Shown here piece by piece: positions 2,293 through 57,701 of a stretch of 64,000 nt of DNA. The translations under genes and the position numbers were made by a program. Below the pieces are notes generated by a model. That model was not told the DNA's origin. It made no database searches and was given only the letters and a program-made list of their open reading frames with translations. Source of the DNA: Candidatus Omnitrophota bacterium (GTDB lineage Bacteria > Omnitrophota > Omnitrophia > Omnitrophales > Aquincolibacteriaceae); assembly GCA_043718225.1 (NCBI GenBank), contig JAYSWD010000001.1:49092-113091 (forward strand), read 5' to 3'. Numbering within the stretch: the first letter of the stretch is position 1; each line of letters starts with the position of its first letter.

Positions 2293-2461
2293 AAAAATAA
2301 ATTTAAATCAATAAACTGATCAAAAAGTTTTAGACGCAAGGCTTGAGCGAGCGACCGCGGAGCCGTAGTAAAACCTACGGCGCACAAGGAAGCGAAGCTC
2401 GTAACGCAGCGGATAAGCTTTTTCATCGGTTTAAACAAAGAACAAAAAGGATCTAACTCAC

Positions 2462-3967: not shown

Positions 3968-4144
3968 CATGACGGCTTCATTTGCGGAGCGAAGCGAGCG
4001 CAAATGAAATTGCCGGAATGTCATCCCAGAAACGCGTAGCGTTATCTGGGATCCAGACAAATGAAAAATTGGATTCCCGCCGGAGTTTACCCTCGAGCGA
4101 CATCGGGGGCGGGAATGACAGAAAGATTTTACAGTATCATTTTT

Positions 4145-4168
4145 GCTCTGCGCCTTTGGCGCAACCGC
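4145..4168 (+). repeat. Family A short hairpin repeat (CTCTG-RGC-loop-GCY-CAACCGC)
   Basis: gctctgcgcctttggcgcaaccgc. Confidence 0.8.
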
Positions 4169-4661: not shown

Positions 4662-4668
4662 TATTTAG

Positions 4669-4692
4669 GCTCTGGGCGCTTCGCCCAACTGC
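4669..4692 (+). repeat. Family A repeat
   Basis: gctctgggcgcttcgcccaactgc. Confidence 0.8.
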
Positions 4693-8043: not shown

Positions 8044-8067
8044 ACGCGAAGCGTTTTCTTTTACTCG

Positions 8068-8091
8068 GCTCTGCGCTTTTGGCGTAACCGC
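8068..8091 (+). repeat. Family A repeat
   Basis: gctctgcgcttttggcgtaaccgc. Confidence 0.75.
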
Positions 8092-8150
8092 GCAAAACTA
8101 GCAAATTGTAGATTAGTAGTTAGTAAGTAGTAATAAAGGGAGAAAAGAAA

Positions 8151-9669: not shown

Positions 9670-9690
9670 GAGCCAAGAGACTTCCTTTTT

Positions 9691-9713
9691 GCTCTGGGCT
9701 TTTGCCCAACCGC
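9691..9713 (+). repeat. Family A repeat
   Basis: gctctgggcttttgcccaaccgc. Confidence 0.8.
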
Positions 9714-17299: not shown

Positions 17300-18559
17300 A
17301 AACAGGATCGACTTTCTCCCTGGCAGGTTTATCAATCCATTTACGCCTCGCAAAAGGTGTCATTTTTTCTCGACAGCATCACTTATCAAAAGCCCAATCA
17401 GCGCTATTCTTTGATTGGCTGGAAGCCCGAAGCCGAGCTGATCCTGCATGAGAAAGATTTAAATGCCGCGGGATTAAAACGTCTGCGTGAATTTGTGCTG
17501 AAAAAAGGTTTTGTTTTCGGTTACTTCGGCTATGAAGCCGCTGCGCTATTTGATACGGTAAAGTTCAGGACTAAAAAATCTTCGGTGTATCCGGCTGTTT
17601 ATCTGGGTTGTTTTAAAAACCTCTGCCGTTATGACCATAAGCTGAAAAAATGGCATGGCCGAATTCCCACCAGTTTATCCGCGCCGCGCGAAAAACTCAA
17701 ATTCAATGGTTTTCGCCCTGAAATTTCAAAAGCCCGGTTTACGGCGAATGTGCGCCGCGCGAAAAAATATATCGAAGCGGGAGATATTTATCAGGCGAAC
17801 TTATCTCAAAAGTTTCTTTTTAATTATCAGGGCTCTCCGCTTGTGATTTATGACCGTCTGCGCCGAATCAACCCGTCGCCTTTTTCTTCATTCATTAAAA
17901 TTCGCGGGCTTGAAGTGGCGAGCTCGTCACCGGAACGGTTAGTACAAAAACGCGGAAGATTTTGTGAAACGCGCCCTATCGCAGGCACCTGTCCGCGACA
18001 TTTAAGCCTCCGCGCTAGCTGCGCGACCGGCGAACAAAAATTGGCAGAGTGGAGAGAAAAATTAATCGGCAGTAGCAAGGAACGCGCCGAACATTTAATG
18101 CTGGTTGATTTGGAAAGAAACGATTTGGGGCGTGTATGTGAATACCGCTCCGTGAAAGTGGAAGAGTTCATGACGCTTGAAAAGTATTCACATGTAGTGC
18201 ATTTGGTTTCGAGCGTCACCGGAAAACTGCGCAAAGACAAAGACGGCCTAAGCCTGCTTGCCGCGATGTTTCCCGGCGGCACGATTACGGGCTGCCCTAA
18301 AATCCGCTGCATGGAAATCATTGATGAGCTTGAGCCGTCGCGGCGGGGTCTTTATACCGGATCCATCGGCTATGTTATGCCGAACGGGGACATGGATTGG
18401 AATATTGTGATTCGCACTTTAGTTTTTAATGAGGGAAAGGGAAGCTTTCAAGTTGGAGCGGGGATTGTGCATGATTCGGAACCGGAAAAAGAATATTTAG
18501 AAACGCTCGCGAAGGGCGAAGCGATGATGCAGGCATTAGCCGAGGCAAGCGCAATCTGA
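17297..18559 (+). CDS. pabB: aminodeoxychorismate synthase component I (chorismate-binding enzyme, PabB/TrpE family)
   Basis: C-terminal chorismate-binding signature (FPGGTITGCPKIRCMEIIDELE, GLYTGSIGYV). It is adjacent to pabC and folC. Confidence 0.75.
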   Translation: MKQDRLSPWQVYQSIYASQKVSFFLDSITYQKPNQRYSLIGWKPEAELILHEKDLNAAGLKRLREFVLKKGFVFGYFGYEAAALFDTVKFRTKKSSVYPAVYLGCFKNLCRYDHKLKKWHGRIPTSLSAPREKLKFNGFRPEISKARFTANVRRAKKYIEAGDIYQANLSQKFLFNYQGSPLVIYDRLRRINPSPFSSFIKIRGLEVASSSPERLVQKRGRFCETRPIAGTCPRHLSLRASCATGEQKLAEWREKLIGSSKERAEHLMLVDLERNDLGRVCEYRSVKVEEFMTLEKYSHVVHLVSSVTGKLRKDKDGLSLLAAMFPGGTITGCPKIRCMEIIDELEPSRRGLYTGSIGYVMPNGDMDWNIVIRTLVFNEGKGSFQVGAGIVHDSEPEKEYLETLAKGEAMMQALAEASAI

Positions 18560-18562
18560 TGA

Positions 18563-18666
18563 AAAATGCTTGCTCACTGCGTTGCAAACAGCGCTCCCTT
18601 GTGCGACGTATTACCGCATACGCCTCCGCGGTCGCTTGTTTACGCCTTGTGCCCAAGCCTTTTTGA
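18563..18666 (+). repeat. Family B ~105 nt structured terminator-associated repeat (A5...CTGC.TCGTT...CCTTGTGCG...CCTCCGCGG...CGCCTTG...T5GA)
   Basis: Copy after pabB, with the conserved blocks tgcgttgcaaa, cccttgtgcg, gtattaccgcatacgcctccgcgg and cctttttga. Confidence 0.75.
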
Positions 18667-18703
18667 TCAGATTGTGTTATAAAATTATTATTTGGAGAAA
18701 TAA

Positions 18704-19564
18704 GTGAACTTTAAGTGTTATTTAGACGGAAAAGAAATTTTTGATCAGGGATTGATTTGCGCTTTTGACCAAAATGAAATTCCGGTTTTTGAATCACTGC
18801 GTGTTTATAACGGAGTTGTTTTTAGATTCGACGAGCATTTAAAACGCTTTGCCGAATCGTCAAAAGCTTGCGGATTAAATTTACCGCCTTCGGCGGTTTT
18901 GAAAACCGCGGTAGAAAAAGCTTTAAAGGCGCATAATGCGGCTGGCGGATTTATTCGCGTTAATTTCACGGATCAAAAAATTTTCATAATGATCGGGGAG
19001 CGAAAACACAAACCCGAAATTTACCGAACCGGCGTTGATCTTAAAACCTCTTCTTTCCGCATGCCGTCGCCAAGGGCCACCGATTCCCAGTCTAAAACGG
19101 GCAATTACCGTTTGCAGCTTTTAGCAACCAGAAGCGAACCACGAACCACGAGCCACGAACCACGTGGTGGCCAACAGCCACCGTACGAATGGCTTTTCCT
19201 CGATGAAAATCACTTTTTGACTGAATCGCGCGTGGGAAACTTTTTTATCGTAAAAAAAGGGGTGATTTTAACGCCCCCGGCCCGGTCGGTGCTGAATGGA
19301 ATCACTAGGGAAGTTGTGATAGAATGCGCCCGCGAATCGGGGCTTTTGGTGCAGGAAACTCCGCTGACCAGGCATGAAGCTTTCAATGCCGACGAAGCTT
19401 TCCTGACCAATACTTCGTGGGAAATTCTTCCGGTGCGTTCACTCGACGGCCGCGTGGTTCAACAAACGGTTCCCGGCCCGGTGACAAAAAAACTCACACA
19501 ATGTTTTCATAGAAAGGTGAGGGGTCGGAGGCCGACCCACTCATCCCCGCGCTGCGAAGCTTAG
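18704..19564 (+). CDS. pabC: aminodeoxychorismate lyase / class IV aminotransferase, with an in-frame heptanucleotide tandem repeat
   Basis: Class IV aminotransferase fold (ESLRVYNGVVFRFDEHLKRF..NFFIVKKGVILTP). The internal (CGAACCA)x4 repeat encodes PRTTSHEP. Confidence 0.7.
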   Translation: MNFKCYLDGKEIFDQGLICAFDQNEIPVFESLRVYNGVVFRFDEHLKRFAESSKACGLNLPPSAVLKTAVEKALKAHNAAGGFIRVNFTDQKIFIMIGERKHKPEIYRTGVDLKTSSFRMPSPRATDSQSKTGNYRLQLLATRSEPRTTSHEPRGGQQPPYEWLFLDENHFLTESRVGNFFIVKKGVILTPPARSVLNGITREVVIECARESGLLVQETPLTRHEAFNADEAFLTNTSWEILPVRSLDGRVVQQTVPGPVTKKLTQCFHRKVRGRRPTHSSPRCEA

Positions 19565-19679: not shown

Positions 19680-21311
19680 ATGTCGTCAAAAAAAACTGCC
19701 AACCCACTGAAAAAAAATTCCGCGAAACTTTCGCGAGTTAAACGCGCGCTTATCTCTGTCTCGGATAAGGAGGGCTTAATTCCTTTCGCGAAAAATCTGC
19801 GCCGTTTCAAAGTCGAAATTATTTCCACAGGCGGCACACTCAAAGCCTTGAAAGAAGCCGGGATTCCCGCAATCGCGATTGACCAAGTTACCGGCTTTCC
19901 TGAAATGATGGACGGTCGCGTCAAAACTTTGCATCCCAAAATTCACGGCGGTCTTTTATATGTGCGCGGCAACAAGTCGCATGAAAAACAAGCCAAAGCC
20001 CACGGCATTACCGCGATTGATTTAGTGGTGGTGAATCTTTATCCGTTTGAAGCTGTTACTCAGGACCCGAACGTGGAGCTCGCGCATGCAATTGAGAATA
20101 TTGATATTGGCGGACCTTCCATGCTGCGTTCAGCCGCCAAAAATTTTAAATCAGTTACGGTCGTTACGGATCCAAATGACTATCACCGCGTACTGCTTGA
20201 GATGGACACTTATAAAGGCGCAACTTCATATGATTTGCGTTTCGAACTTGCGCGCAAAGTTTACGCACGTACATCCGCTTATGATGCGGCCATTGCGGCA
20301 CATTTGAATGCGGAAGTTTCTTCCAAAGAAGAAGTGCTGCCCGCATCGATTGTAGTAGGCCTAAAAAAAACTCAGGAATTACGCTACGGAGAAAACCCAC
20401 ATCAGCGTGCGGCATATTATTCAGTTTCCGGTTGCGCCGGAGGCGCAGAGGGAAAAAACAAGTTGGCATGGAAACAGCTGCACGGCAAAGAACTTTCTTA
20501 TAATAATTTGGTGGATATGGAAGCGGCGATCGAATGCTCCGCCGAATTTAAAGAACCCTCGATTTGCGTGATTAAACATACCAACCCATGCGGCCTGGCG
20601 CAAAATAAAAATCTCGTTCAGGCTGTGGATGAGGCGATTGATTCAGACCCCGTTTCCGCATTTGGCGGCATCGTTGGCATTAATCGCATTTGCACCGAAG
20701 AAGTCGCACAGCGGATTTTAGACCGCCTCGGTTTTTTTGAAATTATCGTTGCGCCCGGCTACAAACCGAAAGCGCTTGCAAAACTTCAGGCGCGTAAAAA
20801 TTTGCGCATTATGGAAGTTGCTGGGCTTGATAATCAATCCGGTTTTGAAATTAAATTGCTGCGCACAGGCGCATTGGTTCAGGAGAAGAATCATCCGATC
20901 CGTTTCCGGCTTGCGGAGTTCAAGAAAAACCTGAAATGGGTTACGAAACATAAACTCACTAAAGATAAATTGGATGAACTGGTTTTTGCCTATCAATGCG
21001 CGAAACTTGTGAAATCAAACGCGATTGTTTTGACACAAGGTTTTAAAACCGTCGGTGTGGGTGCGGGTCAAATGTCGCGGGTCGACTCGACAAAAATCGC
21101 CTGTGATAAAGCCGGCGCGAAAACACGCGGCGCTTTCGTCGGCAGTGATGCATTCTTTCCGATGCCTGACTCAATCGAATATGCCGCAAAGTTCGGCATT
21201 GAAGCTATCATCCAGCCGGGTGGATCGATCAAAGATCAAGATGCGATTGATACTTGCAATAAACTGGGAATAGCCATGGTCTTCACTGGCGAACGACACT
21301 TCAAACATTAA
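19680..21311 (+). CDS. purH: bifunctional AICAR transformylase / IMP cyclohydrolase
   Basis: MGS-like N-terminus (KRALISVSDKEGL) and AICARFT domain, 543 aa. Confidence 0.9.
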   Translation: MSSKKTANPLKKNSAKLSRVKRALISVSDKEGLIPFAKNLRRFKVEIISTGGTLKALKEAGIPAIAIDQVTGFPEMMDGRVKTLHPKIHGGLLYVRGNKSHEKQAKAHGITAIDLVVVNLYPFEAVTQDPNVELAHAIENIDIGGPSMLRSAAKNFKSVTVVTDPNDYHRVLLEMDTYKGATSYDLRFELARKVYARTSAYDAAIAAHLNAEVSSKEEVLPASIVVGLKKTQELRYGENPHQRAAYYSVSGCAGGAEGKNKLAWKQLHGKELSYNNLVDMEAAIECSAEFKEPSICVIKHTNPCGLAQNKNLVQAVDEAIDSDPVSAFGGIVGINRICTEEVAQRILDRLGFFEIIVAPGYKPKALAKLQARKNLRIMEVAGLDNQSGFEIKLLRTGALVQEKNHPIRFRLAEFKKNLKWVTKHKLTKDKLDELVFAYQCAKLVKSNAIVLTQGFKTVGVGAGQMSRVDSTKIACDKAGAKTRGAFVGSDAFFPMPDSIEYAAKFGIEAIIQPGGSIKDQDAIDTCNKLGIAMVFTGERHFKH

Positions 21312-21320
21312 GATTCGATG

Positions 21321-21426
21321 AAAAAACATCATCTGCTTCGTTCCAAACTTCGCAATCTGCGTGCTGCGTATTACCGCATACGCCTCCTTAATTGCTCGTT
21401 TGCGCCTTGCATCTAATGCTTTTTGA
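21321..21426 (+). repeat. Family B repeat
   Basis: Copy after purH: ctgcttcgttccaaa ... gcgtattaccgcatacgcctcc ... tgcgccttgca ... ctttttga. Confidence 0.75.
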
Positions 21427-21444
21427 TCGAATCTTCCACTCGAT

Positions 21445-30651: not shown

Positions 30652-30672
30652 GCTGCTATAATGACCCCCATG
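30652..30672 (+). promoter_or_regulatory. Extended −10 box TGCTATAAT 7 nt upstream of the second dnaX ATG (leaderless-type arrangement)
   Basis: gctgctataatgacccccATG. Confidence 0.35.
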
Positions 30673-32436
30673 GCAGCCAAAGAATCTCCCAAACCCTCAG
30701 GTTATCTTGTTTTCGCGCGTAAATACCGCCCTCAGACTTTTGACGAAGTCGTCGGGCAGCAATCCACGCTGACAACGCTTAAAAACGCGCTGGCTTCGGG
30801 ACGTATCCCGCAAAGTTTTATTTTCTCAGGTTCCCGCGGCGTCGGAAAGACATCCGTCGCGCGTATTCTCGCGAAAGCTTTGAACGCGTCCGGCGGAGCA
30901 AACCCCGATTTTGACCGTAAAGACGCGGCTGCCCGTGAAATTGAAGAAGGCCGCTCCATGGATGTGCTTGAAATTGACGGCGCATCCAATCGCGGCATCG
31001 AAGAAATCCGTTCCTTGCGCGAAACCGTTAAATTCAAACCCGCATCCGGCGCGTATAAAATTTATATTATCGATGAAGTCCATATGCTCACAACCGAAGC
31101 GTTCAATGCTTTGCTCAAAACGCTTGAAGAGCCGCCACCGCATGTAAAATTTATTTTCGCGACAACTGAAATTCACAAAGTGCCGCTGACGATTCTTTCG
31201 CGCTGTCAGCGTTTTCATTTTCGCCGGCTCACCGCGGATGAAATTGTTGAGAAACTGGTCGATATCGCGAAAATTGAAAAAATCAAATGCGACAAAGACG
31301 CACTTTATTTAATCGCGCGCGCGAGTGACGGAGCGCTGCGTGACGCTGAAAGCCTGCTGGATCAAATTTCCAGTTTTTCCGACGGTGAAATTAAAGAAGA
31401 ATCCGTTCTGACATTGCTCGGAATTGCCTCCGACAAAATCAATGAAACTCTGATCGAAGCGGTGAAGGCGCGCAGCGGCCAGGATATTTTGGCCGTGATT
31501 CAATCTTTTTATGAAAGTGGCGGCGACTTGCTTCAGCTTTCGCGCGGATTTTTTGAAATTTTAAGGCATTTGCTTGTGCTGCAGCATGTCAAAGACACAC
31601 AGGGTTTAATCGAAGCGGGACCCGCGATGCTTGAAATGTTGAAAAAACATAAAGCCTCTTTTAGCGAAGCCGAAATTTTACTCGGCCTTGCCATCTTCCA
31701 AAACCTGCAGGCTGATTTGCGCCGGCCCGTAACCGCGCCGCGCTTCATGGTTGAAGCCGCTTTTTTAAAATTGATTTATGCCGACGGCATGCGTTCCGTA
31801 AACGAACTGATTTCTAATTTCTCCCTGCCTGCCGCCCGGCCGGTGAGCGAGCCGCAACCGGCAATACCAAAACGAAATATTTCTTCTGCTCCGGCTCAGC
31901 AAAACGTTCCACAGCCGCCGATTAAATCTCAGTCTGTCGCTCCGGTAAAACCTTCAACATACAATGAACCCAAAGCGCAGATCCAACCTAGGGTTGGTGG
32001 CTCGGGAACAGAGACGCTGGTTGCGCCTTTGGCGCAGAAGCAAAATGAAATAGCAATTGAACAGGTTAAGACGGCTTGGCCGAACGTGATTGAATCCGTC
32101 AAACAAAAGCGCATGTCCACCGGCATTTTTCTTTCCGAGGCCGAACCTGTCGAAGTAGATGACACTGTGATTATTTTAGGGCTTCCCGAAGAGTTTAAAT
32201 TTCATAAGGAGAGCCTTGAAAAAGATAACAATAAAAAACTGGTCGAAGATTGTTTTTCAGAAAGTATCGGAACCAAAGTCCGCGTGCGTTTTGTCGTGAC
32301 ACAGCAAGCTGCCGTCGAAAGACCGGCACCCCGGCCCGTGACGCTTCCTTCGGAGTCCGAAAAACGGGAGCTGCCAGATATTATTACGAAAGCGCTGGAT
32401 GTTTTTGACGGCGCTAAAATCGTTCGTGCTGAATAA
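30661..32436 (+). CDS. dnaX: DNA polymerase III subunit gamma/tau
   Basis: AAA+ clamp-loader motifs (GSRGVGKTS, DEVHMLT, SRCQRF). The start may be the second ATG at 30670. Confidence 0.9.
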   Translation: MTPMAAKESPKPSGYLVFARKYRPQTFDEVVGQQSTLTTLKNALASGRIPQSFIFSGSRGVGKTSVARILAKALNASGGANPDFDRKDAAAREIEEGRSMDVLEIDGASNRGIEEIRSLRETVKFKPASGAYKIYIIDEVHMLTTEAFNALLKTLEEPPPHVKFIFATTEIHKVPLTILSRCQRFHFRRLTADEIVEKLVDIAKIEKIKCDKDALYLIARASDGALRDAESLLDQISSFSDGEIKEESVLTLLGIASDKINETLIEAVKARSGQDILAVIQSFYESGGDLLQLSRGFFEILRHLLVLQHVKDTQGLIEAGPAMLEMLKKHKASFSEAEILLGLAIFQNLQADLRRPVTAPRFMVEAAFLKLIYADGMRSVNELISNFSLPAARPVSEPQPAIPKRNISSAPAQQNVPQPPIKSQSVAPVKPSTYNEPKAQIQPRVGGSGTETLVAPLAQKQNEIAIEQVKTAWPNVIESVKQKRMSTGIFLSEAEPVEVDDTVIILGLPEEFKFHKESLEKDNNKKLVEDCFSESIGTKVRVRFVVTQQAAVERPAPRPVTLPSESEKRELPDIITKALDVFDGAKIVRAE

Positions 32437-32437
32437 C

Positions 32438-32525
32438 GGTGACAAGGTGACATGTGACAAGTGACCGAAATAAAAAATCGAGCGATATCTTTTATCCGTC
32501 ACCCGTCATCCGTCACCCGTCACTT
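32438..32525. promoter_or_regulatory. Mirrored arrays of four GTGAC(A) direct repeats at 8 bp period filling the dnaX-recR spacer
   Basis: ggtgacaaggtgacatgtgacaagtgacc, then a central ATAAAA..gatatc..TTTTAT palindrome, then ccgtcacccgtcatccgtcacccgtcac. Confidence 0.5.
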
Positions 32526-32530
32526 CTCTT

Positions 32531-33130
32531 ATGAAGGCATATCACGATACTTTAAATGAACTGATCGAAGCCATTGCCGAACTGCCCGGCCTCGGGAAGC
32601 GTTCGGCCGAGCGTATCGCGATGTATCTGTTGAAAGCGGAGAAAAGCGAATGCCTGCGCCTTTCCGAATTAATTATACAGCTGCGCGACAAAACTCAATT
32701 TTGCAAAATCTGCAATCATTACAGCGACGGCGAGATTTGTCCGGTTTGCGCTGACCCGAGCCGCGACACAGGCCTGATTTGTGTTGTGGAAGATCCGCGT
32801 GATTTAATCGCGCTTGAAAAGACCGGAACTTATTCGGGGCAGTACCATGTTTTGCTCGGCGTGATTTCGGCTTTGGACGGTATCGGACCCGAAGAGATTC
32901 AGCTCGCGGGGCTTTTAGAGCGCGTCAAGAAAGGTAAAATCCGCGAAGTCATTCTAGCGACGAATCCCAACACCGAAGGCGACACGACCGCTTTCTATAT
33001 CACAAAGATTTTAAAACCGCTCGGCATTAAAACTACGCGCATCGCCCGCGGAGTGCCGGTGGGCAATCATCTCGAATATACCGATGCCGCGACTTTATCC
33101 CGCGCCCTCGAAGGCCGAGTGACAGCTTGA
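32531..33130 (+). CDS. recR: recombination protein RecR
   Basis: C4 zinc finger (CKICNHYSDGEICPVC) plus Toprim domain. No ybaB-like gene lies between dnaX and recR. Confidence 0.9.
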   Translation: MKAYHDTLNELIEAIAELPGLGKRSAERIAMYLLKAEKSECLRLSELIIQLRDKTQFCKICNHYSDGEICPVCADPSRDTGLICVVEDPRDLIALEKTGTYSGQYHVLLGVISALDGIGPEEIQLAGLLERVKKGKIREVILATNPNTEGDTTAFYITKILKPLGIKTTRIARGVPVGNHLEYTDAATLSRALEGRVTA

Positions 33131-33139
33131 AGACCGCTG

Positions 33140-33245
33140 AAAAAAGTCATTTGCCGCGTTGCAAACCTCGCTTCCTCCCGCGATGTATTACCGAATACAC
33201 CTTGGTCGGGCGCTTGTTTGCGCCTTGCAACTGATCTTTTTTGAT
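33140..33245 (+). repeat. Family B repeat
   Basis: Copy after recR: ttgccgcgttgcaaa ... cttcctcccgcgatgtattaccgaatacacc ... tgcgccttgca ... cttttttga. Confidence 0.75.
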
Positions 33246-33282
33246 CAGTCTTTCCAAAATGAGGTTTTAAAAAGGAGATTTT

Positions 33283-33837
33283 GTGAAAAAAACAGCGGTT
33301 TTTATTTTAATGGTAATCGCTGGCATGTCTTTGGCATGGGCGCAAGAAACAACAGAAGAGTGGACCGCGGCAAGAATGGAATATGCCAAATCAAAAAACT
33401 ATAATTCACTTATCCAGAGCAGCTCAGAGAGAAAGGCAGTGATGGAGGCCTTTAAAGCCGAAGATTATGAAAAAACAATTAATTTAGGGTTGAAATGGCT
33501 GGAAAAAAATCCGACAGATATTAGAGGGCTGCATGTTGTCGGAGTTTCATACGATAAATTGGGAAAAATAGAAGAAGCTAAAAAATATTTGAATAACCGC
33601 AACAAAATCTGCGATTCAATCGCCGCTTCAGGTGACGGGCGTACGCTCGAAACCGCTTTTTTAATGTTATCAACTGCAGAAGTCCATGATTTTATAAATA
33701 TTCTTGGCGCTCAAAACTGTAAATACGTTTTGCAGCCAGGCGGCGGTGATCGGGCTGATTGTAATACTCCCGAGGGCCGTGAGATTTCTATCTATTTCAA
33801 ATATATTTCCGAATATTGGTCGGGCTTACTGAGATAA
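33283..33837 (+). CDS. hypothetical secreted protein (184 aa)
   Basis: Signal peptide MKKTAVFILMVIAGMSLAWA, a TPR-like helical region and a Cys-containing C-terminus. Confidence 0.5.
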   Translation: MKKTAVFILMVIAGMSLAWAQETTEEWTAARMEYAKSKNYNSLIQSSSERKAVMEAFKAEDYEKTINLGLKWLEKNPTDIRGLHVVGVSYDKLGKIEEAKKYLNNRNKICDSIAASGDGRTLETAFLMLSTAEVHDFINILGAQNCKYVLQPGGGDRADCNTPEGREISIYFKYISEYWSGLLR

Positions 33838-34702: not shown

Positions 34703-34773
34703 GCGGGTATTGCTTAATGGTAAAGCGCTAGCCTTCCAAGCTAGTTATGAGGGTTCGATTCCCTCTACCCGCT
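34703..34773 (+). tRNA. tRNA-Gly (anticodon TCC)
   Basis: Acceptor GCGGGTA/TACCCGC, anticodon loop CTTCCAA, T-arm GAGGGTTCGATTCCCTC. Confidence 0.8.
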
Positions 34774-34897
34774 CTCGGTTTCTAAAAAGAACCGTCTGCT
34801 GCGTTATCACCTTCGCTCCCTTGTGCGGAGTAATTAGCATTACACCTCCGCGATCGCTCGGCGACGCCTTGCATTCAGGCTCTTTTGAGAAACCGAG
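34774..34897 (+). repeat. Family B repeat directly after tRNA-Gly, enclosed by a 20 bp inverted repeat (ctcggtttctaaaaagaaccg / ggctcttttgagaaaccgag)
   Basis: tctgctgcgttatcaccttcgctcccttgtgcgg ... cacctccgcg ... cgccttgcattca. Confidence 0.7.
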
Positions 34898-34900
34898 CGG

Positions 34901-35068
34901 ATAACGGGGGAATCGAACGGGAGGCGCGATTAGTTTTAATGATTTAGTATGAAAAAATCTGACTTAATGTCAGATTTTTTTGTGATAAATGCGTTATGAG
35001 CGCCGGGAGGCGAGTCGAAGTAAGTGCGGCGACTAGCCGGCACGAATGAAGACCGCTCGATTCCTTGT
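34901..35068 (+). repeat. Family C element downstream of tRNA-Gly
   Basis: Blocks gggggaatcgaac, aaaatctgacttaatgtcagatttttt and agtgcggcgactagccggcacgaatgaag. It ends ..cgattcc. Confidence 0.6.
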
Positions 35069-36591: not shown

Positions 36592-38856
36592 ATGCGCGTT
36601 CATGAGCTTGCGAAGCAAATTGATAAAACGAGCAAAGAGATTATCGCTGAATTTGAAAAAATCGGCGTTTCCTTAAAGAGCCATATGTCTGTTATTCCCG
36701 ACGGAGCACTGCATCAATTAGCCTCTGCGTCTGCGACGAAACCGGCGGCAACAGCACCACAGTCCGTTCCAAAAAATGAAGAAGCAAAACAAAAAACAGC
36801 AGCCGGTAAAGCTTCTGCCCCCGCGCCAAAAGCGCAGCCGGCAGCAGCCAAACAAAAAGAAACCCCTAAAAAAGAAATCGCGCCCGCTCCGACGGTTGCC
36901 GCTCCTGTTGTTAAAAAAGAAGAGATAAAGCCCGTGGCGGAAGTAAAAGCGCCTGCGCCCGCAGCCGCTTCCATTGCCGCAGCCGTGCCGAAAGCAGCGT
37001 CTGCGCCGGCACCTGTTCCGTCTCGCTCTGCCTCTGGGCCTGCAGCCCAACCGACAAAAACGCCATATGAACGGCCGCGCGTGGAAGAAGTTCTGCCTCA
37101 AAAAGTGACATTGGCATTCCCGATTACGGTCGGAAATTTTTCTCAAGCCACTGGCCGCAAGGTCGCGGAAATTATTAAAACTCTGATGAAAATCGGCGTT
37201 ATGGCAAATGTGAACCAGCTCCTCAACGAAGAAATCGGAATGGGGCTCGCTTCCGCGTTAAGCATTGAAATTGAAAAAGAACAGGATGAAATCGAAGCTT
37301 TGCTGCGTGACTCGGCTCAGAGCGAAGACCCTACAAAATTAAAATTCCGTCCTCCCGTTGTAACAATGATGGGCCATGTTGATCACGGCAAAACATCACT
37401 TTTAGATGCGATCCGCAAAACGAGCGTCGCTTCCCGTGAAAAAGGATTTATTACGCAGCATATCGGCGCTTATGGCGTAGATGTTCCGGGCAAAGGGCAT
37501 GTGACTTTTCTTGATACACCGGGCCACGAAGCTTTTACCGCCATGCGTGCGCGCGGCGCGAACGTGACGGACATTGTGGTGCTTGTGGTTGCGGCGGATG
37601 ACGGCATTATGCCCCAAACAGTGGAGGCGATCGCGCATGCGCGCGAAGCCGGTTGTCCTATTATCGTCGCGATCAATAAAATTGATTTACCCGCGTCGAA
37701 TCTTGAAAAAGTAATGGGCGGCTTACAGAAAGCTGATTTAACTCCCGAAGAATGGGGCGGAAAAACGATTTGCGTGAAAGTCTCCGCGAAAACCGGTGCC
37801 GGAATCGACGAGCTTTTGGATATGCTTTTGCTGCAAGCGGAAGTTTTGGAATTAAAAGCTAACCCCGACCGTTTTGCAGTGGGAACTATTATTGAAGGCC
37901 ACTTGTCAAAAGGCAGCGGCCCCGCGGCAACCGTGATCGTTCAGAACGGAACTTTGAAAACAGGCGATATTATCGTCGCAGGCCCGAACATGGGCCGCGT
38001 ACGCGCGCTGCGTGATGATTTGGGTAAACATATGAAAGAAGCGGGACCGTCTTATGCCGCGGAAGTCATGGGGCTTGACGGCGTACCCGCCGCGGGCGAA
38101 ATTTTTCACGTTGCGCCGGATGAAAAAATCGCGCGCCGTTTCGCGGAAAAGAAAAGACTCGAATTGCGCGAAAAAGAGATGCATTCGGCCAGCAAACATA
38201 TGTCGCTTGAAAGTGTTTACGAAAAAATTTCCGAAGGTAATTTTAAAGAACTTAAATTAATTGTTAAAGCGGACGTGCAGGGTTCGATCGAAGCTTTGCG
38301 CGACGCTCTCGAGCGCCTTTCAACCGAAATGTGCCGTGTCCATATTATTCACAGCGTTGCCGGCGGCATCAATGAATCCGACGTCATGCTTGCGGCGGCG
38401 AGTGACGCCATCATTATCGGTTTTCATGTGCGCGCGGACGCGAAAGCCAAAGTGCTTGCGGACCGCGAAGGCGTGGATTTACGCTATTATGGAATTATTT
38501 ATGAAGCCGTAGAGAACGTAAAAATGGCCATGGAAGGAATTCTATCACCGACGCTTACGGAAAAAATAGTCGGGACGATTGAAGTTCGCCAGATTTTCAA
38601 ATCTTCAAAAGTAGGCACAATCGGCGGCGCTAAAGTTAAAAAAGGCACGGTCACACGCTCCAATCAAATCCGCGTACTGCGCGACAATGTGGTGTTGTTT
38701 GAAGGTAAGCTGGCATCGCTTAAGCGTTTCAAGGATGACGTTCGTGAGGTCAAAGAAGGCTTCGAATGCGGCGTTGCGGTGGAAGGCTTTAATGATTTGC
38801 AGCCCGGAGATCTTATAGAAGCTTTCCATATTGAAAAAACTGCGACCAAACTTTAA
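36592..38856 (+). CDS. infB: translation initiation factor IF-2
   Basis: Ala/Pro-rich N-terminal region, a G-domain (GHVDHGKTSLLD, DTPGHEAF, NKID) and C-terminal domains. Confidence 0.9.
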   Translation: MRVHELAKQIDKTSKEIIAEFEKIGVSLKSHMSVIPDGALHQLASASATKPAATAPQSVPKNEEAKQKTAAGKASAPAPKAQPAAAKQKETPKKEIAPAPTVAAPVVKKEEIKPVAEVKAPAPAAASIAAAVPKAASAPAPVPSRSASGPAAQPTKTPYERPRVEEVLPQKVTLAFPITVGNFSQATGRKVAEIIKTLMKIGVMANVNQLLNEEIGMGLASALSIEIEKEQDEIEALLRDSAQSEDPTKLKFRPPVVTMMGHVDHGKTSLLDAIRKTSVASREKGFITQHIGAYGVDVPGKGHVTFLDTPGHEAFTAMRARGANVTDIVVLVVAADDGIMPQTVEAIAHAREAGCPIIVAINKIDLPASNLEKVMGGLQKADLTPEEWGGKTICVKVSAKTGAGIDELLDMLLLQAEVLELKANPDRFAVGTIIEGHLSKGSGPAATVIVQNGTLKTGDIIVAGPNMGRVRALRDDLGKHMKEAGPSYAAEVMGLDGVPAAGEIFHVAPDEKIARRFAEKKRLELREKEMHSASKHMSLESVYEKISEGNFKELKLIVKADVQGSIEALRDALERLSTEMCRVHIIHSVAGGINESDVMLAAASDAIIIGFHVRADAKAKVLADREGVDLRYYGIIYEAVENVKMAMEGILSPTLTEKIVGTIEVRQIFKSSKVGTIGGAKVKKGTVTRSNQIRVLRDNVVLFEGKLASLKRFKDDVREVKEGFECGVAVEGFNDLQPGDLIEAFHIEKTATKL

Positions 38857-38957
38857 TTCGCTGAAAAATGTTCATCTGCTTCGTCAGTCGCTTCGCTTCC
38901 TTGTGCGGGTATTGCCGCATACGCCTCCGCGGGCGCTCGCGACTTCCTCGCGTCTAA
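38854..38957 (+). repeat. Family B repeat
   Basis: Copy after infB: atctgcttcgtcag ... cttccttgtgcgggtattgccgcatacgcctccgcggg ... tttttttga. Confidence 0.75.
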
Positions 38958-39002
38958 ATTTTTTTGAGCGAATTTAATATTTTTTGAATTTAGGAATTAT
39001 TT

Positions 39003-45279: not shown

Positions 45280-45287
45280 TTCGTTTT

Positions 45288-45310
45288 GCCTCTGCGCAAA
45301 GCGCAACCGA
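45288..45310 (+). repeat. Family A repeat
   Basis: gcctctgcgcaaagcgcaaccga. Confidence 0.75.
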
Positions 45311-45326
45311 CGACAATTATATTTTT

Positions 45327-45358
45327 GCTCTGAGCTGCGCTCAACCGCGGCTCAGAGC
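45327..45358 (+). repeat. Family A repeat with a head-to-head partial inverted copy
   Basis: gctctgagctgcgctcaaccgcggctcagagc. Confidence 0.8.
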
Positions 45359-45390
45359 AAACTTTTTTTAGGGAAACTGTTTTTATTTAG

Positions 45391-45412
45391 TTCTGGGCTT
45401 CGCCCAACCACA
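45391..45412 (+). repeat. Family A repeat
   Basis: ttctgggcttcgcccaaccaca. Confidence 0.7.
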
Positions 45413-45423
45413 GGAAGAGAAAT

Positions 45424-48829: not shown

Positions 48830-48990
48830 GCAACAATGTCCCGTCCAACTTGTTTTTAAGCCCGACACAGCACCGAGGTATATTCTTATATCGCCTATAG
48901 CGATTTAAATTTTAACGAAGGGCCAGGTCCGTCCGACTTGTTTTTAAACCGGACACGGCACGGAGCATTGTTTTCAAATGGCTTTAAGCC
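48830..48990 (+). promoter_or_regulatory. Two ~40 nt direct repeats plus short palindromes, ~200-330 bp upstream of phoB
   Basis: Repeat 1 (48838-48877) is gtcccgtccaacttgtttttaagcccgacacagcaccgagg. Repeat 2 (48926-48966) is gtccgtccgacttgtttttaaaccggacacggcacggagc. The palindromes atcgcctatagcgat and aatggctttaagccatt lie alongside, and the pair is flanked by caacaatg / cattgtt. Confidence 0.4.
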
Positions 48991-49162
48991 ATTTGAATTA
49001 AAAGGAAGCGCCAGTGTCAAGAACGTGTAAATTCATTTTCCGCCTCTCGCAATCAAAGGCGCACTTGTGTATGATTCACCGAGGAAGAAGCCGGTTTTAA
49101 GAAATTAAGTGATAGTAATAAAGCTTAAACCTTATCACTTATAACTTATTACCAAAGGACCC

Positions 49163-57677: not shown

Positions 57678-57681
57678 TTAA

Positions 57682-57701
57682 CTCTGCGCTACGCGCAACC
57701 G
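57682..57701 (+). repeat. Family A repeat
   Basis: ctctgcgctacgcgcaaccg. Confidence 0.7.

What the first reader, a model, noticed from the sequence alone, without database searches (positions are those of the whole stretch)
32437..32530. dnaX-recR spacer is entirely a mirrored array of GTGAC repeats around an AT palindrome
Four GTGACA units at 8 bp spacing (ggtgacaaggtgacatgtgacaagtgacc) sit on one side. Four GTCAC units at the same period sit on the other (ccgtcacccgtcatccgtcacccgtcac). Between them is ATAAAAaatcgagcGATATCttTTTTAT. Regularly phased half-site repeats in inverted arrays look like an iteron-type or multimeric-regulator binding site, or a cruciform-prone locus. The usual ybaB gene is missing between dnaX and recR here.
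Basis: seen in the sequence. Interest (0 to 1): 0.55.

Follow-up and report, generated by a model that had tools for sequence, protein, structure and literature searches.

The report
Hairpin of inverted 7-base repeats
The 94-base gap between two DNA-replication/repair genes (dnaX and recR) of an uncultured Omnitrophota bacterium is filled by a fast-evolving hairpin built from mirrored 7-base repeats, which looks like a replication-origin or regulator site but is absent from the available relatives.

Summary
Four GTGAC units after the dnaX stop codon face four GTCAC/GTCAT units that end 7 nt before the recR ATG, around a 32-nt AT-rich centre. The period is 7, not 8, with one 8-nt step.

The spacer folds into one long "ladder" hairpin. 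It is the only such array in the 64 kb.

It is not conserved. The nearest available relatives (recR about 72-80% nt identical) have spacers of 9-145 nt. These hold nothing, other hairpin families, or heptamer hairpins with different units.

Period-7 arrays are the dominant short tandem repeat in this lineage, and the literature reports heptamer excess across bacteria. My best reading is a lineage-specific inverted heptanucleotide repeat grown by 7-nt slippage. It would be transcribed as an intercistronic stem-loop and tolerated because it folds away.

The iteron reading is not dead. Phage contigs carry the same GTGAC-repeat / AT-rich / GTCAC-repeat layout just downstream of primase-helicase genes, which is a SaPI-type origin layout. 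The window has no such gene and no GC-skew switch.

Verdict: new member of a known, poorly understood kind. Interest is moderate.

The parts
30661..32436 (+). dnaX (DNA polymerase III tau/gamma, 591 aa); stop codon TAA at 32434-32436
   Evidence: ORF list. Pfam hits DNA_pol3_delta2, DnaX_C and DNAX_ATPase_lid.
32438..32465 (+). Left arm: GGTGACAA GGTGACAT GTGACAA GTGAC. The four GTGAC cores start at 32439, 32447, 32454 and 32461 (steps 8, 7, 7).
   Evidence: Sequence; TRF period 7, 3.7 copies; regex positions.
32466..32497 (+). AT-rich centre (69% A+T). Inner stem ATAAAA (32470-32475) pairs with TTTTAT (32490-32495). It also holds the GATATC palindrome (32484-32489) and a 3-bp AUC/GAU mini-hairpin that forms the apical loop.
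   Evidence: Sequence; RNA fold; composition.
32496..32523 (+). Right arm: CCGTCAC CCGTCAT CCGTCAC CCGTCAC. This is an exact 7-nt period. Cores start at 32498, 32505, 32512 and 32519.
   Evidence: TRF: 4.0 copies, 90% matches, score 49; the repeat finder D1.
32524..32530 (+). TTCTCTT linker between the base of the hairpin and the recR start codon. It contains no Shine-Dalgarno-like motif.
   Evidence: Sequence; survey of upstream regions.
32531..33130 (+). recR (199 aa)
   Evidence: Pfam RecR_HhH, RecR_ZnF, Toprim_4 and RecR_C; homologues.
33131..33255 (+). Context, not part of the element: a copy of a different dispersed hairpin of about 125 nt ('family A'), directly after recR.
   Evidence: Folds; alignment and covariation.

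Best explanation
The spacer is a lineage-specific, hairpin-forming pair of inverted heptanucleotide tandem arrays, which I call a 'ladder hairpin'.

Shown:
- It exists, and chance does not explain it.
- It folds as one stem-loop of about 32 bp, in which 5-6-bp helices are interrupted every 7 nt.
- It is missing from the nearest available relatives.
- Period 7 is the dominant short tandem-repeat period in this lineage.
- The same spacer in other Omnitrophota is empty or holds other hairpin elements, several of them heptamer hairpins with unrelated units.

Inferred:
- A short seed hairpin (GTGAC-NN / NN-GTCAC) grew by replication slippage in 7-nt steps in each arm separately. This would explain why the right arm is homogeneous (CC linkers) and why the A/C linker mismatches recur at every step.
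- The element is transcribed within the dnaX-recR mRNA. It is tolerated because it folds on itself, which keeps the dnaX stop codon and the recR AUG within about 10 nt of each other at the base of the stem.
- Its likely effects are generic rather than sequence-specific. It could act as a barrier to 3'->5' decay or as a partial pause. It could also make translation of the SD-less recR depend on ribosomes finishing dnaX, which would unwind the basal helices.
- No dedicated binding protein is required.
For: - Arrays and statistics.
- Folds.
- Only periods 6-9 were tested in the window. Period 7 gave 5 arrays and periods 6, 8 and 9 gave 0.
- In the Omnitrophota set of 170 kb, periods 5-12 were tested. 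Period 7 gave 17 rows and period 5 gave 6. Periods 6 and 8-12 gave none.
- dnaX-recR spacers in relatives: 9 nt (L174), 13 (L172), 16 (L169), 32 (L162), 81 (L171, GCGTAC heptamers), 105 (L165, a hairpin with a 13-bp perfect stem), 118 (L175, CTAAAT-type heptamer hairpin), about 145 (L002, family-A hairpin) and L004 (ACAGACC x4 facing GGTCTGT x9).
- A 7-nt unit indel separates two copies of a related heptamer hairpin, in L172 and L173 (read by eye, because the aligner did not place the gap).
- The same ladder geometry appears in 8 or more other elements.
- The same CCGTCAC unit occurs as a plain direct heptamer repeat on Xanthomonas and Streptomyces plasmids.
- Literature: heptamer repeats are the most abundant long simple-sequence repeats in most bacterial genomes, and polymerase slippage has been proposed as the cause (Mrazek 2007, as summarised in PMC4692102 and PMC4679880).
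- Literature: Geobacter metallireducens has eight pairs of five tandem heptanucleotides on opposite strands, one pair between proB and proA (PMC2700814).
- recR has no SD-like motif upstream.
- No Rfam family, promoter or terminator consensus was found.
Against: - The left-arm linkers differ in sequence and length (AAG, AT, AA, C). Recent slippage alone would not give that. The constant GTGAC core could instead reflect selection for a binding motif.
- The - strand RNA folds better than the mRNA strand, so the mRNA structure is not optimised.
- The nearest relatives are only about 72-80% identical in recR DNA. 'Not conserved' therefore cannot date the gain.
- About 60% of the window's longest-ORF starts also lack an SD-like motif, so recR's lack of one is weak support for translational coupling.
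- No transcript or expression data exist.
Confidence: 0.5

Rival explanations
1. Iteron-type protein-binding array on double-stranded DNA. Each GTGAC core would bind a subunit of a multimeric protein on both sides of an easily melted AT-rich centre. This could be an orphan or cryptic SaPI/P4-type origin recognised by a phage or satellite primase-helicase. It could also be an operator or roadblock for a host multimeric regulator, in the way ribbon-helix-helix proteins bind 7-bp heptads (own knowledge: omega protein of pSM19035).
For: - Layout here: eight pentanucleotide cores, four on each side of an AT-rich stretch, pointing in opposite directions.
- This matches the published SaPI origin definition: 6-12 penta- or hexanucleotide iterons, half on each side of an AT-rich region, at least two per side in opposite directions (PMC9371898).
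- Viral contigs carry the same units. L244 has GTGACAA x3, then an AT-rich stretch, then GTCACTC x3. L196 has GGTGACG x3, then an AT-rich stretch, then CGTCACC x3.
- I checked the neighbours of 23 such viral loci. Ten have a replication helicase/primase-type gene within about 1.6 kb: VapE-like, DUF5906, PriCT, Prim-Pol, Toprim_3, DUF3987 or AAA_25 (the last a generic AAA domain that I take to be a replicative helicase). In eight of them the arrays lie roughly 90-550 nt downstream of that ORF.
- The GTGAC core is constant while the linkers vary.
Against: - No primase-helicase or Rep homologue is in the 64 kb (tblastn; phmmer with 10 viral replication proteins).
- The element lies inside a housekeeping operon and there is no GC-skew switch.
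- It is unique in the window and absent from relatives.
- At the same spacer, other lineages carry heptamer hairpins with unrelated units (ACAGACC, CTAAAT, GCGTAC). Each would need its own binding protein.
- The AT-rich centre is only 32 bp.
- The viral search was seeded with GTGAC, so sharing that core is partly built in.
Confidence: 0.2
2. A non-autonomous mobile 'foldback' element (MITE- or REPIN-like) whose arms are made of short tandem repeats. It would have inserted into a formerly short dnaX-recR spacer.
For: - Presence/absence differs among relatives.
- Relatives carry a dispersed heptamer-armed hairpin family (CTAAAT type). Copies lie both up- and downstream of recR and in the infB-rbfA spacer.
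- The right arm of that family is 97.6% identical between L173 and L175, although their recR genes are only 75.7% identical.
- Two other dispersed hairpin families occupy the same kinds of spacers: family A and the 105-nt family in L165.
Against: - There is only one copy in 64 kb, and none in any other fetched locus.
- No target-site duplication or terminal motif beyond the arrays is visible.
- There is no sequence similarity to the CTAAAT family or to family A.
- No transposase candidate was identified.
Confidence: 0.15
3. A dedicated RNA signal between the two cistrons. It would be either an intrinsic terminator or attenuator, or an RNase III processing site, uncoupling recR from dnaX.
For: - The hairpin is long and stable. 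It is followed by UUCUCUU, with 5 U in 7 nt.
- Many intergenic spacers of this window are strongly structured.
Against: - No terminator-like site was found by the consensus scan.
- The basal helix is short and interrupted.
- Analogous hairpins in relatives are followed by no U-tract and end 0-3 nt from the start codon.
- Relatives with spacers of 9-32 nt do without any such signal.
Confidence: 0.08
4. The functional strand is the minus strand. The element would be an antisense small RNA, or a structure used as single-stranded DNA of the template strand.
For: - The minus-strand RNA folds at -42.8 kcal/mol (z = -6.1), against -31.9 kcal/mol for the plus strand. The A/C linker mismatches become G-U pairs on the minus strand.
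Against: - The three A/C mismatches are probably one event copied by unit duplication, not three independent events.
- One plus-strand G-U pair (at the GTCAT unit) argues the other way.
- There is no promoter-like site on the minus strand at the element.
- Across 11 comparable elements there is no consistent sense or antisense advantage.
Confidence: 0.05

Closest known systems
Intergenic heptanucleotide simple-sequence repeats. Examples: cyanobacterial STRR; GGGAATC in Xanthomonas; TAACTGA in Beggiatoaceae; heptamers at the recF and recO starts in Nostoc.
   Same: - Tandem 7-nt units, about 3-5 copies, in intergenic DNA and often ending within a few nt of a start codon.
- Rapid length and sequence turnover between related genomes.
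- Occasional inverted pairs.
- Sources: PMC4692102, PMC4679880, bioRxiv 10.1101/2022.06.06.494920.
   Different: - Those families reuse one unit at tens to hundreds of sites per genome. Here the unit is seen once in 64 kb.
- Here the two arrays are always paired into a hairpin.
Paired 'class 3' sites of Geobacter metallireducens. There are eight pairs of five tandem heptanucleotides (MTYCTGA) on opposite strands, one pair between proB and proA (PMC2700814).
   Same: - Inverted arrays of tandem heptamers separated by a variable spacer.
- They sit between genes of one operon.
- Function is unknown.
   Different: - The Geobacter sites are a multicopy family with a shared unit.
- Their authors guessed at binding of a global regulator or IHF/HU.
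- Neither multicopy status nor binding is shown here.
SaPI / P4-type replication origins: iterons on both sides of an AT-rich region, next to a primase-helicase gene.
   Same: - Short cores of 5-6 nt, at least two on each side of an AT-rich centre, in opposite orientation (PMC9371898).
- The same GTGAC/GTCAC layout lies downstream of VapE, DUF5906 or Prim-Pol genes in viral contigs.
   Different: - There is no rep gene here.
- The setting is a chromosomal housekeeping operon.
- The centre is only 32 bp.
- The element is not conserved.
- Its units are contiguous at a 7-nt period.
REP/BIME- and REPIN-type intercistronic hairpins (own knowledge; PMC3333891 and PMC3116915 were only listed by the searches, and I did not read them).
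   Same: - Imperfect palindromes that fill gaps between co-directional genes.
- Variable presence between relatives.
- Probably transcribed as mRNA stem-loops.
   Different: - REPs are high-copy, with a conserved sequence and a cognate RAYT transposase.
- This element is single-copy in the window and is built of tandem subrepeats.

Membership tests
Heptanucleotide simple-sequence repeat | At least 3 head-to-tail copies of a 7-nt unit | tested here: met
   TRF finds CCGTCAC x4.0 (90% matches) and GTGACAA x3.7.
Heptanucleotide simple-sequence repeat | Unit-number variation between strains (slippage) | tested here: inconclusive
   The only other copy of this element (L001) is identical. A 7-nt indel is seen in a related heptamer hairpin between L172 and L173.
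Paired inverted heptanucleotide arrays (G. metallireducens class 3 type) | Two tandem arrays of the same unit on opposite strands, a short distance apart | tested here: met
   The consensus units are reverse complements with one mismatch.
Paired inverted heptanucleotide arrays (G. metallireducens class 3 type) | Multicopy family within the genome | tested here: inconclusive
   There are no other copies in the 64-kb window. The rest of the genome is not available; look-ups beyond the window ends failed.
SaPI/P4-type origin of replication | At least two short iterons on each side of an AT-rich region, in opposite orientation | tested here: met
   Four plus four GTGAC cores lie around a 32-nt centre of 69% A+T.
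SaPI/P4-type origin of replication | Located next to (just downstream of) the cognate rep / primase-helicase gene | tested here: not met
   The upstream gene is dnaX. No homologue of 10 viral replication proteins is in the window.
SaPI/P4-type origin of replication | Initiator binds the iterons and melts the AT-rich centre | not testable with these tools
   This needs EMSA, footprinting or replication assays.
Chromosomal origin or terminus | GC-skew switch at the site | tested here: not met
   GC skew is positive across the whole window.
Intrinsic terminator | G+C-rich uninterrupted stem with a short loop, followed by a U-run | tested here: not met
   No terminator-like site lies in 31900-33400. 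The tail is UUCUCUU.
Any Rfam RNA family | Covariance-model score at or above the gathering threshold | tested here: not met
   Only two tRNAs are found in the window. At the element there are only chance-level miRNA-precursor hits, E about 1.
Dispersed hairpin repeat (REP/REPIN/MITE) | Several similar copies in one genome, with defined ends or a target-site duplication | tested here: not met
   There is a single copy in the window and none in the other loci. No flanking direct repeat is visible. The whole genome was not tested.
Conserved cis-regulatory site of the dnaX-recR operon | Conservation of sequence or spacing in relatives | tested here: not met
   Spacers range from 9 to about 145 nt with unrelated content in 10 or more related lineages.

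The most novel reading that the evidence does not exclude
The array is an orphan SaPI/P4-type origin-like site planted in a housekeeping operon directly behind dnaX. A primase-helicase encoded by a phage or satellite, with GTGAC specificity, would load there. Alternatively the site titrates that initiator, acting as an iteron decoy that interferes with the invader's replication.

More broadly, Omnitrophota 'ladder hairpins' could be a class of foldback elements derived from such origins, which colonise stop-start junctions.
Probability: 0.08. Interest if true: 0.75.

Novelty: new member of a known kind. Interest (0 to 1): 0.38.

Why it matters
As a single locus it matters little. The closest relatives do without it, so it is not a conserved control element of dnaX-recR.

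Two wider points are worth keeping.

First, in this Omnitrophota lineage the gaps between housekeeping cistrons are repeatedly occupied by long hairpins of several unrelated families. Some of these have arms built from 7-nt repeats. That makes the old, unexplained excess of heptamer repeats in bacteria approachable through presence/absence and unit-number comparisons.

Second, the scan turned up many phage contigs in which inverted GTGAC arrays around an AT-rich centre lie just downstream of primase-helicase genes. These are candidate replication origins that could be annotated from sequence alone.

Tried and rejected
- Rfam: nothing at gathering score or at E-value thresholds.
- Promoter and terminator consensus scan: nothing at the element.
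- Chromosomal origin or terminus: rejected, because there is no GC-skew switch.
- YbaB elsewhere in the window: not found. This is a weak test, since the query sequences came from memory.
- Genome contigs and metagenome-contig scans with RecR: these gave only one close relative (L002/L082), and the rest were distant phyla. Close relatives had to be fetched one at a time by exact-protein look-up.
- Reaching beyond the window ends to look for more copies: failed, because the proteins are not on record.
- Strand test (sense against antisense RNA stability) across 11 elements: no consistent bias.
- SD-mimic idea (GGUGA as SD-like, GUCACC as anti-SD-like): considered and dropped. The motifs are more than 65 nt from the AUG, and only about 40% of the window's longest-ORF starts have an SD-like motif upstream.
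- Control viral scan with GACTG: not independent, because rotated GTGACTG arrays match both patterns.
- blastn of the element against annotated phages: no match.
- blastn against plasmids: only direct CCGTCAC repeats, with no informative annotation.
- Enrichment of heptamer arrays next to recR in particular: the numbers are too small and every locus was chosen through recR, so I make no claim.

Full report
**1. What is there**

The window comes from an uncultured Candidatus Omnitrophota bacterium. RecR homologues named by their sources are Omnitrophota/Omnitrophica, and the best genome hit is UBA2337 at 83% amino-acid identity.

dnaX (30661-32436) and recR (32531-33130) lie on the + strand. 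Pfam confirms both.

The 94-nt spacer reads:

cg GTGACaag GTGACat GTGACaa GTGAC / cgaaATAAAAaatcgagcGATATCTTTTATcc / GTCACcc GTCATcc GTCACcc GTCAC / ttctctt ATG

- The GTGAC cores start at 32439, 32447, 32454 and 32461.
- The GTCAC/GTCAT cores start at 32498, 32505, 32512 and 32519.
- Tandem Repeats Finder calls both arms as period 7: 3.7 and 4.0 copies.
- The arrangement is far beyond chance. All four GTGAC-N2/3-GTGAC matches of the 64-kb window are here, against 0.03-0.05 expected.
- An independent Logan contig (L001) carries the identical sequence, so it is not an assembly artefact of this window.

**2. Structure**

As RNA the spacer folds into one long hairpin. It has four 5-6-bp GUGAC/GUCAC helices separated by 2x2 A/C or A-U/C-C internal loops. 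An inner AUAAA/UUUAU helix follows, topped by a small apical hairpin.
- On the mRNA strand the energy is -31.9 kcal/mol, z = -4.4.
- The minus strand folds better, at -42.8 kcal/mol, z = -6.1. The AA/CC linkers become GG/UU wobble pairs there.
- These three mismatches are most simply one event copied with the unit. One GTCAT unit gives a G-U pair on the plus strand instead.
- Across 11 comparable elements neither strand is consistently favoured.
- As DNA the fold is weak, at -15.5 kcal/mol, z = -2.9. With helices of 5-6 bp, a cruciform is unlikely.
- The stem base sits 2 nt after the dnaX stop codon and 7 nt before the recR AUG.

**3. Conservation**

The closest relatives I could fetch are only 72-80% identical to the window in recR DNA.

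| Locus | dnaX-recR spacer | Content |
|---|---|---|
| L174 | 9 nt | nothing |
| L172 | 13 nt | nothing |
| L169 | 16 nt | nothing |
| L162 | 32 nt | nothing |
| L171 | 81 nt | GCGTACT GCGTACA ... GCGTACG |
| L165 | 105 nt | 13-bp perfect stem spanning the whole spacer |
| L175, L173 | 118 nt (L175; L173 copy is cut by the contig end) | hairpin with heptamer arms, ACTCTAA... facing ...TAGGATT |
| L002/L082 | about 145 nt | copy of a 125-nt hairpin family also present five times in the window |

More distant Omnitrophota-like genomes have 3-20 nt. L004 has a 170-nt hairpin of ACAGACC x4 facing GGTCTGT x9.

The GTGAC array itself occurs in no other fetched locus. What recurs is the architecture, not the sequence.

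**4. The class it belongs to**

A simple scan for arrays of at least 3 copies gave these counts.
- In the window, only periods 6-9 were tested. Period 7 gave five arrays and periods 6, 8 and 9 gave none.
- In 170 kb of Omnitrophota loci, periods 5-12 were tested. Period 7 gave 17 rows and period 5 gave six. Periods 6 and 8-12 gave none.
- In 1.27 Mb of RecR loci from other phyla, period 7 gave 23, against 2 for period 8.

Inverted heptamer pairs were found in L004, L006, L172, L175 (twice) and the window. By eye they also occur in L054, L087, L114 and L169.

All of them fold as 'ladder' hairpins, with helices of 5-7 bp interrupted every 7 nt. The regular mismatches mean that each arm is homogenised on its own, which is what unit duplication and loss within an arm would produce.

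A 7-nt unit difference separates the L172 and L173 copies of one such hairpin. I read this by eye, because the aligner did not place the gap.

The literature already records several related observations:
- Heptamers are the most abundant long simple-sequence repeats in most bacterial genomes, with polymerase slippage proposed as the cause.
- Such repeats vary strongly between related Xanthomonas genomes and occasionally form inverted pairs.
- They often end next to start codons.
- Geobacter metallireducens has eight pairs of five tandem heptanucleotides on opposite strands, one pair between proB and proA.
- The very unit CCGTCAC occurs as a plain direct repeat on Xanthomonas and Streptomyces plasmids.

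**5. Context in this lineage**

Nine of about 38 intergenic spacers in the window are strongly structured, with z <= -4 on the + strand. At least two dispersed families are visible.
- Family A is a hairpin of about 125 nt. Six copies were aligned, and 21 of 41 pairs show compensatory changes.
- The second is a 25-nt REP-like hairpin.

In L165 two 79%-identical copies of a third 105-nt hairpin flank recR.

The CTAAAT-type heptamer hairpin is itself dispersed. Copies lie up- and downstream of recR and in the infB-rbfA spacer. Its right arm is 97.6% identical between genomes whose recR genes are 75.7% identical.

So short stop-start gaps in this lineage are repeatedly filled by foldable elements. 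Any insertion into a gap of 9-16 nt will look as if it 'fills the spacer', so that geometry is not independent evidence of function.

**6. The iteron lead**

Among the loci returned, 15 of 136 (N2) and 24 of 125 (N3) arrays have an inverted partner within 250 nt, usually around an AT-rich stretch. Some use the same units as here. L244 has GTGACAA x3 facing GTCACTC x3, and L196 has GGTGACG x3 facing CGTCACC x3.

I checked the neighbours of 23 such loci.
- Ten have a replication helicase/primase-type gene within about 1.6 kb: VapE-like, DUF5906, PriCT, Prim-Pol, Toprim_3, DUF3987 or AAA_25.
- In eight the arrays lie roughly 90-550 nt downstream of that ORF.

That is the published SaPI origin layout.

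Against applying it here:
- No such gene is in the window.
- There is no skew switch.
- The element is not conserved.
- Unrelated heptamer units sit at the same spacer in other lineages.
- The search was seeded with GTGAC, and my control pattern was not independent.

**7. Mechanism I commit to (confidence about 0.5)**

I read this as a lineage-specific inverted heptanucleotide repeat. It grew by 7-nt slippage in both arms of a seed hairpin. It is transcribed within the dnaX-recR mRNA as a stem-loop and is tolerated because it folds away. Folding keeps the dnaX stop codon and the SD-less recR start codon adjacent.

Its likely effects are generic:
- a barrier to decay, or a pause;
- recR initiation that depends on ribosomes terminating at dnaX, which would unwind the basal helices.

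The anatomy, the fold, the non-conservation and the class membership are shown. The origin by slippage, the transcription and the coupling are inferred.

Rivals are a dsDNA iteron or regulator site (0.2), a mobile foldback element (0.15), a terminator or processing site (0.08) and a minus-strand RNA (0.05).

**8. Verdict**

This is a new member of a known but unexplained kind. It is not a conserved regulatory site, and interest is moderate.

Noticed in passing
window 2305-2430 (-), 18548-18680, 21306-21440, 33131-33255, 38855-38980 (+); L002 3855-3995: 'Family A' is a dispersed imperfect hairpin of about 125 nt. Its ends read GATGAAAAA...TTTTTGATC and its core reads CCTTGTGCG.GTATT.CCGCATACGCCTCCGCGG. 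It occurs in both orientations in intercistronic gaps, and in UBA2337 it fills the dnaX-recR spacer. In six aligned copies, 21 of 41 pairs show compensatory changes. There is no Rfam match.
   Followed up: partly
window ~4140-4165, ~4667-4691, ~8065-8090, ~9689-9713, three copies in 45280-45423, ~57681-57701: A short REP-like hairpin, YTCTG[CG]GC-N3-5-GC[CG]CAACCRC, is repeated in many intergenic spacers (seen by eye).
   Followed up: no
window 19134-19164: CGAACCA x4.3 is a 30-nt in-frame heptamer repeat inside a class IV aminotransferase gene (18704-19564). It is followed by the hairpin GTGGTGGCcaacaGCCACC and encodes ...SEPRTTSHEPRGG....
   Followed up: partly
window 8113-8133 and 49101-49152: Two further heptamer arrays lie just upstream of start codons. 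TTAGTAG TTAGTAA GTAGTAA lies before the rpsP-like ORF (ATG 8153). CTTATCA CTTATAA CTTATTA lies before the OmpR-type response regulator (ATG 49163) and pairs with GTGATAGTAATAA.
   Followed up: partly
L175 1986-2103 and 2704-2842; L172 863-987; L173 1-66 and 667-803; L169 7762-7925: This is a dispersed 'CTAAAT-type' hairpin family with heptamer arms in relatives. It starts right after stop codons and ends 3 nt before start codons. Its right arm is 97.6% identical between genomes whose recR genes are 75.7% identical. One 7-nt unit indel separates the L172 and L173 copies.
   Followed up: partly
L165 9896-10000 and 10601-10705: Two copies of a 105-nt hairpin element (79% identical, same length) flank recR. 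Each ends exactly at the downstream ATG and carries GAGGAG 13 nt upstream of it.
   Followed up: partly
viral loci L244, L429, L443, L449, L471, L506, L242, L415, L457, L467: Inverted GTGAC-N2/3 arrays around AT-rich centres lie within about 1.6 kb of replication helicase/primase-type genes (VapE, DUF5906, PriCT, Prim-Pol, Toprim_3, DUF3987, AAA_25). Mostly they lie just downstream of those ORFs. They are candidate phage or satellite replication origins.
   Followed up: partly
window element and L004, L006, L054, L172, L175 (x2), L169 elements: In 8 of 8 Omnitrophota heptamer hairpins, the half that is 5' on the recR strand is the A-richer half. In 7 of the 8 the 3' half is T-rich; L175u is the exception, at 25 A against 22 T. 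Four of the eight belong to one family. The bias is unexplained.
   Followed up: no
window 33283-33837: A DUF4919 gene with a signal-peptide-like N-terminus sits between recR and the short-chain dehydrogenase gene. In the relatives checked (L162, L165, L169, L171, L174, L175) the dehydrogenase gene directly follows recR.
   Followed up: no
window 34753-34793 / 34878-34918: A 41-nt inverted repeat (76% complementary) has a left arm that overlaps the 3' end of tRNA-Gly(TCC) by about 21 nt (34753-34773) and then runs into the downstream flank. It may be a remnant of an integration event.
   Followed up: no
window 48841-49014: Two tandem copies of an 88-nt unit (74% matches) lie in the long gap upstream of the response-regulator operon.
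   Followed up: no
L171 3181-3249: Two adjacent heptamer arrays (GAACAAR x3-4, then GAGACMR x4-5) lie inside the dnaX coding region of a relative.
   Followed up: no
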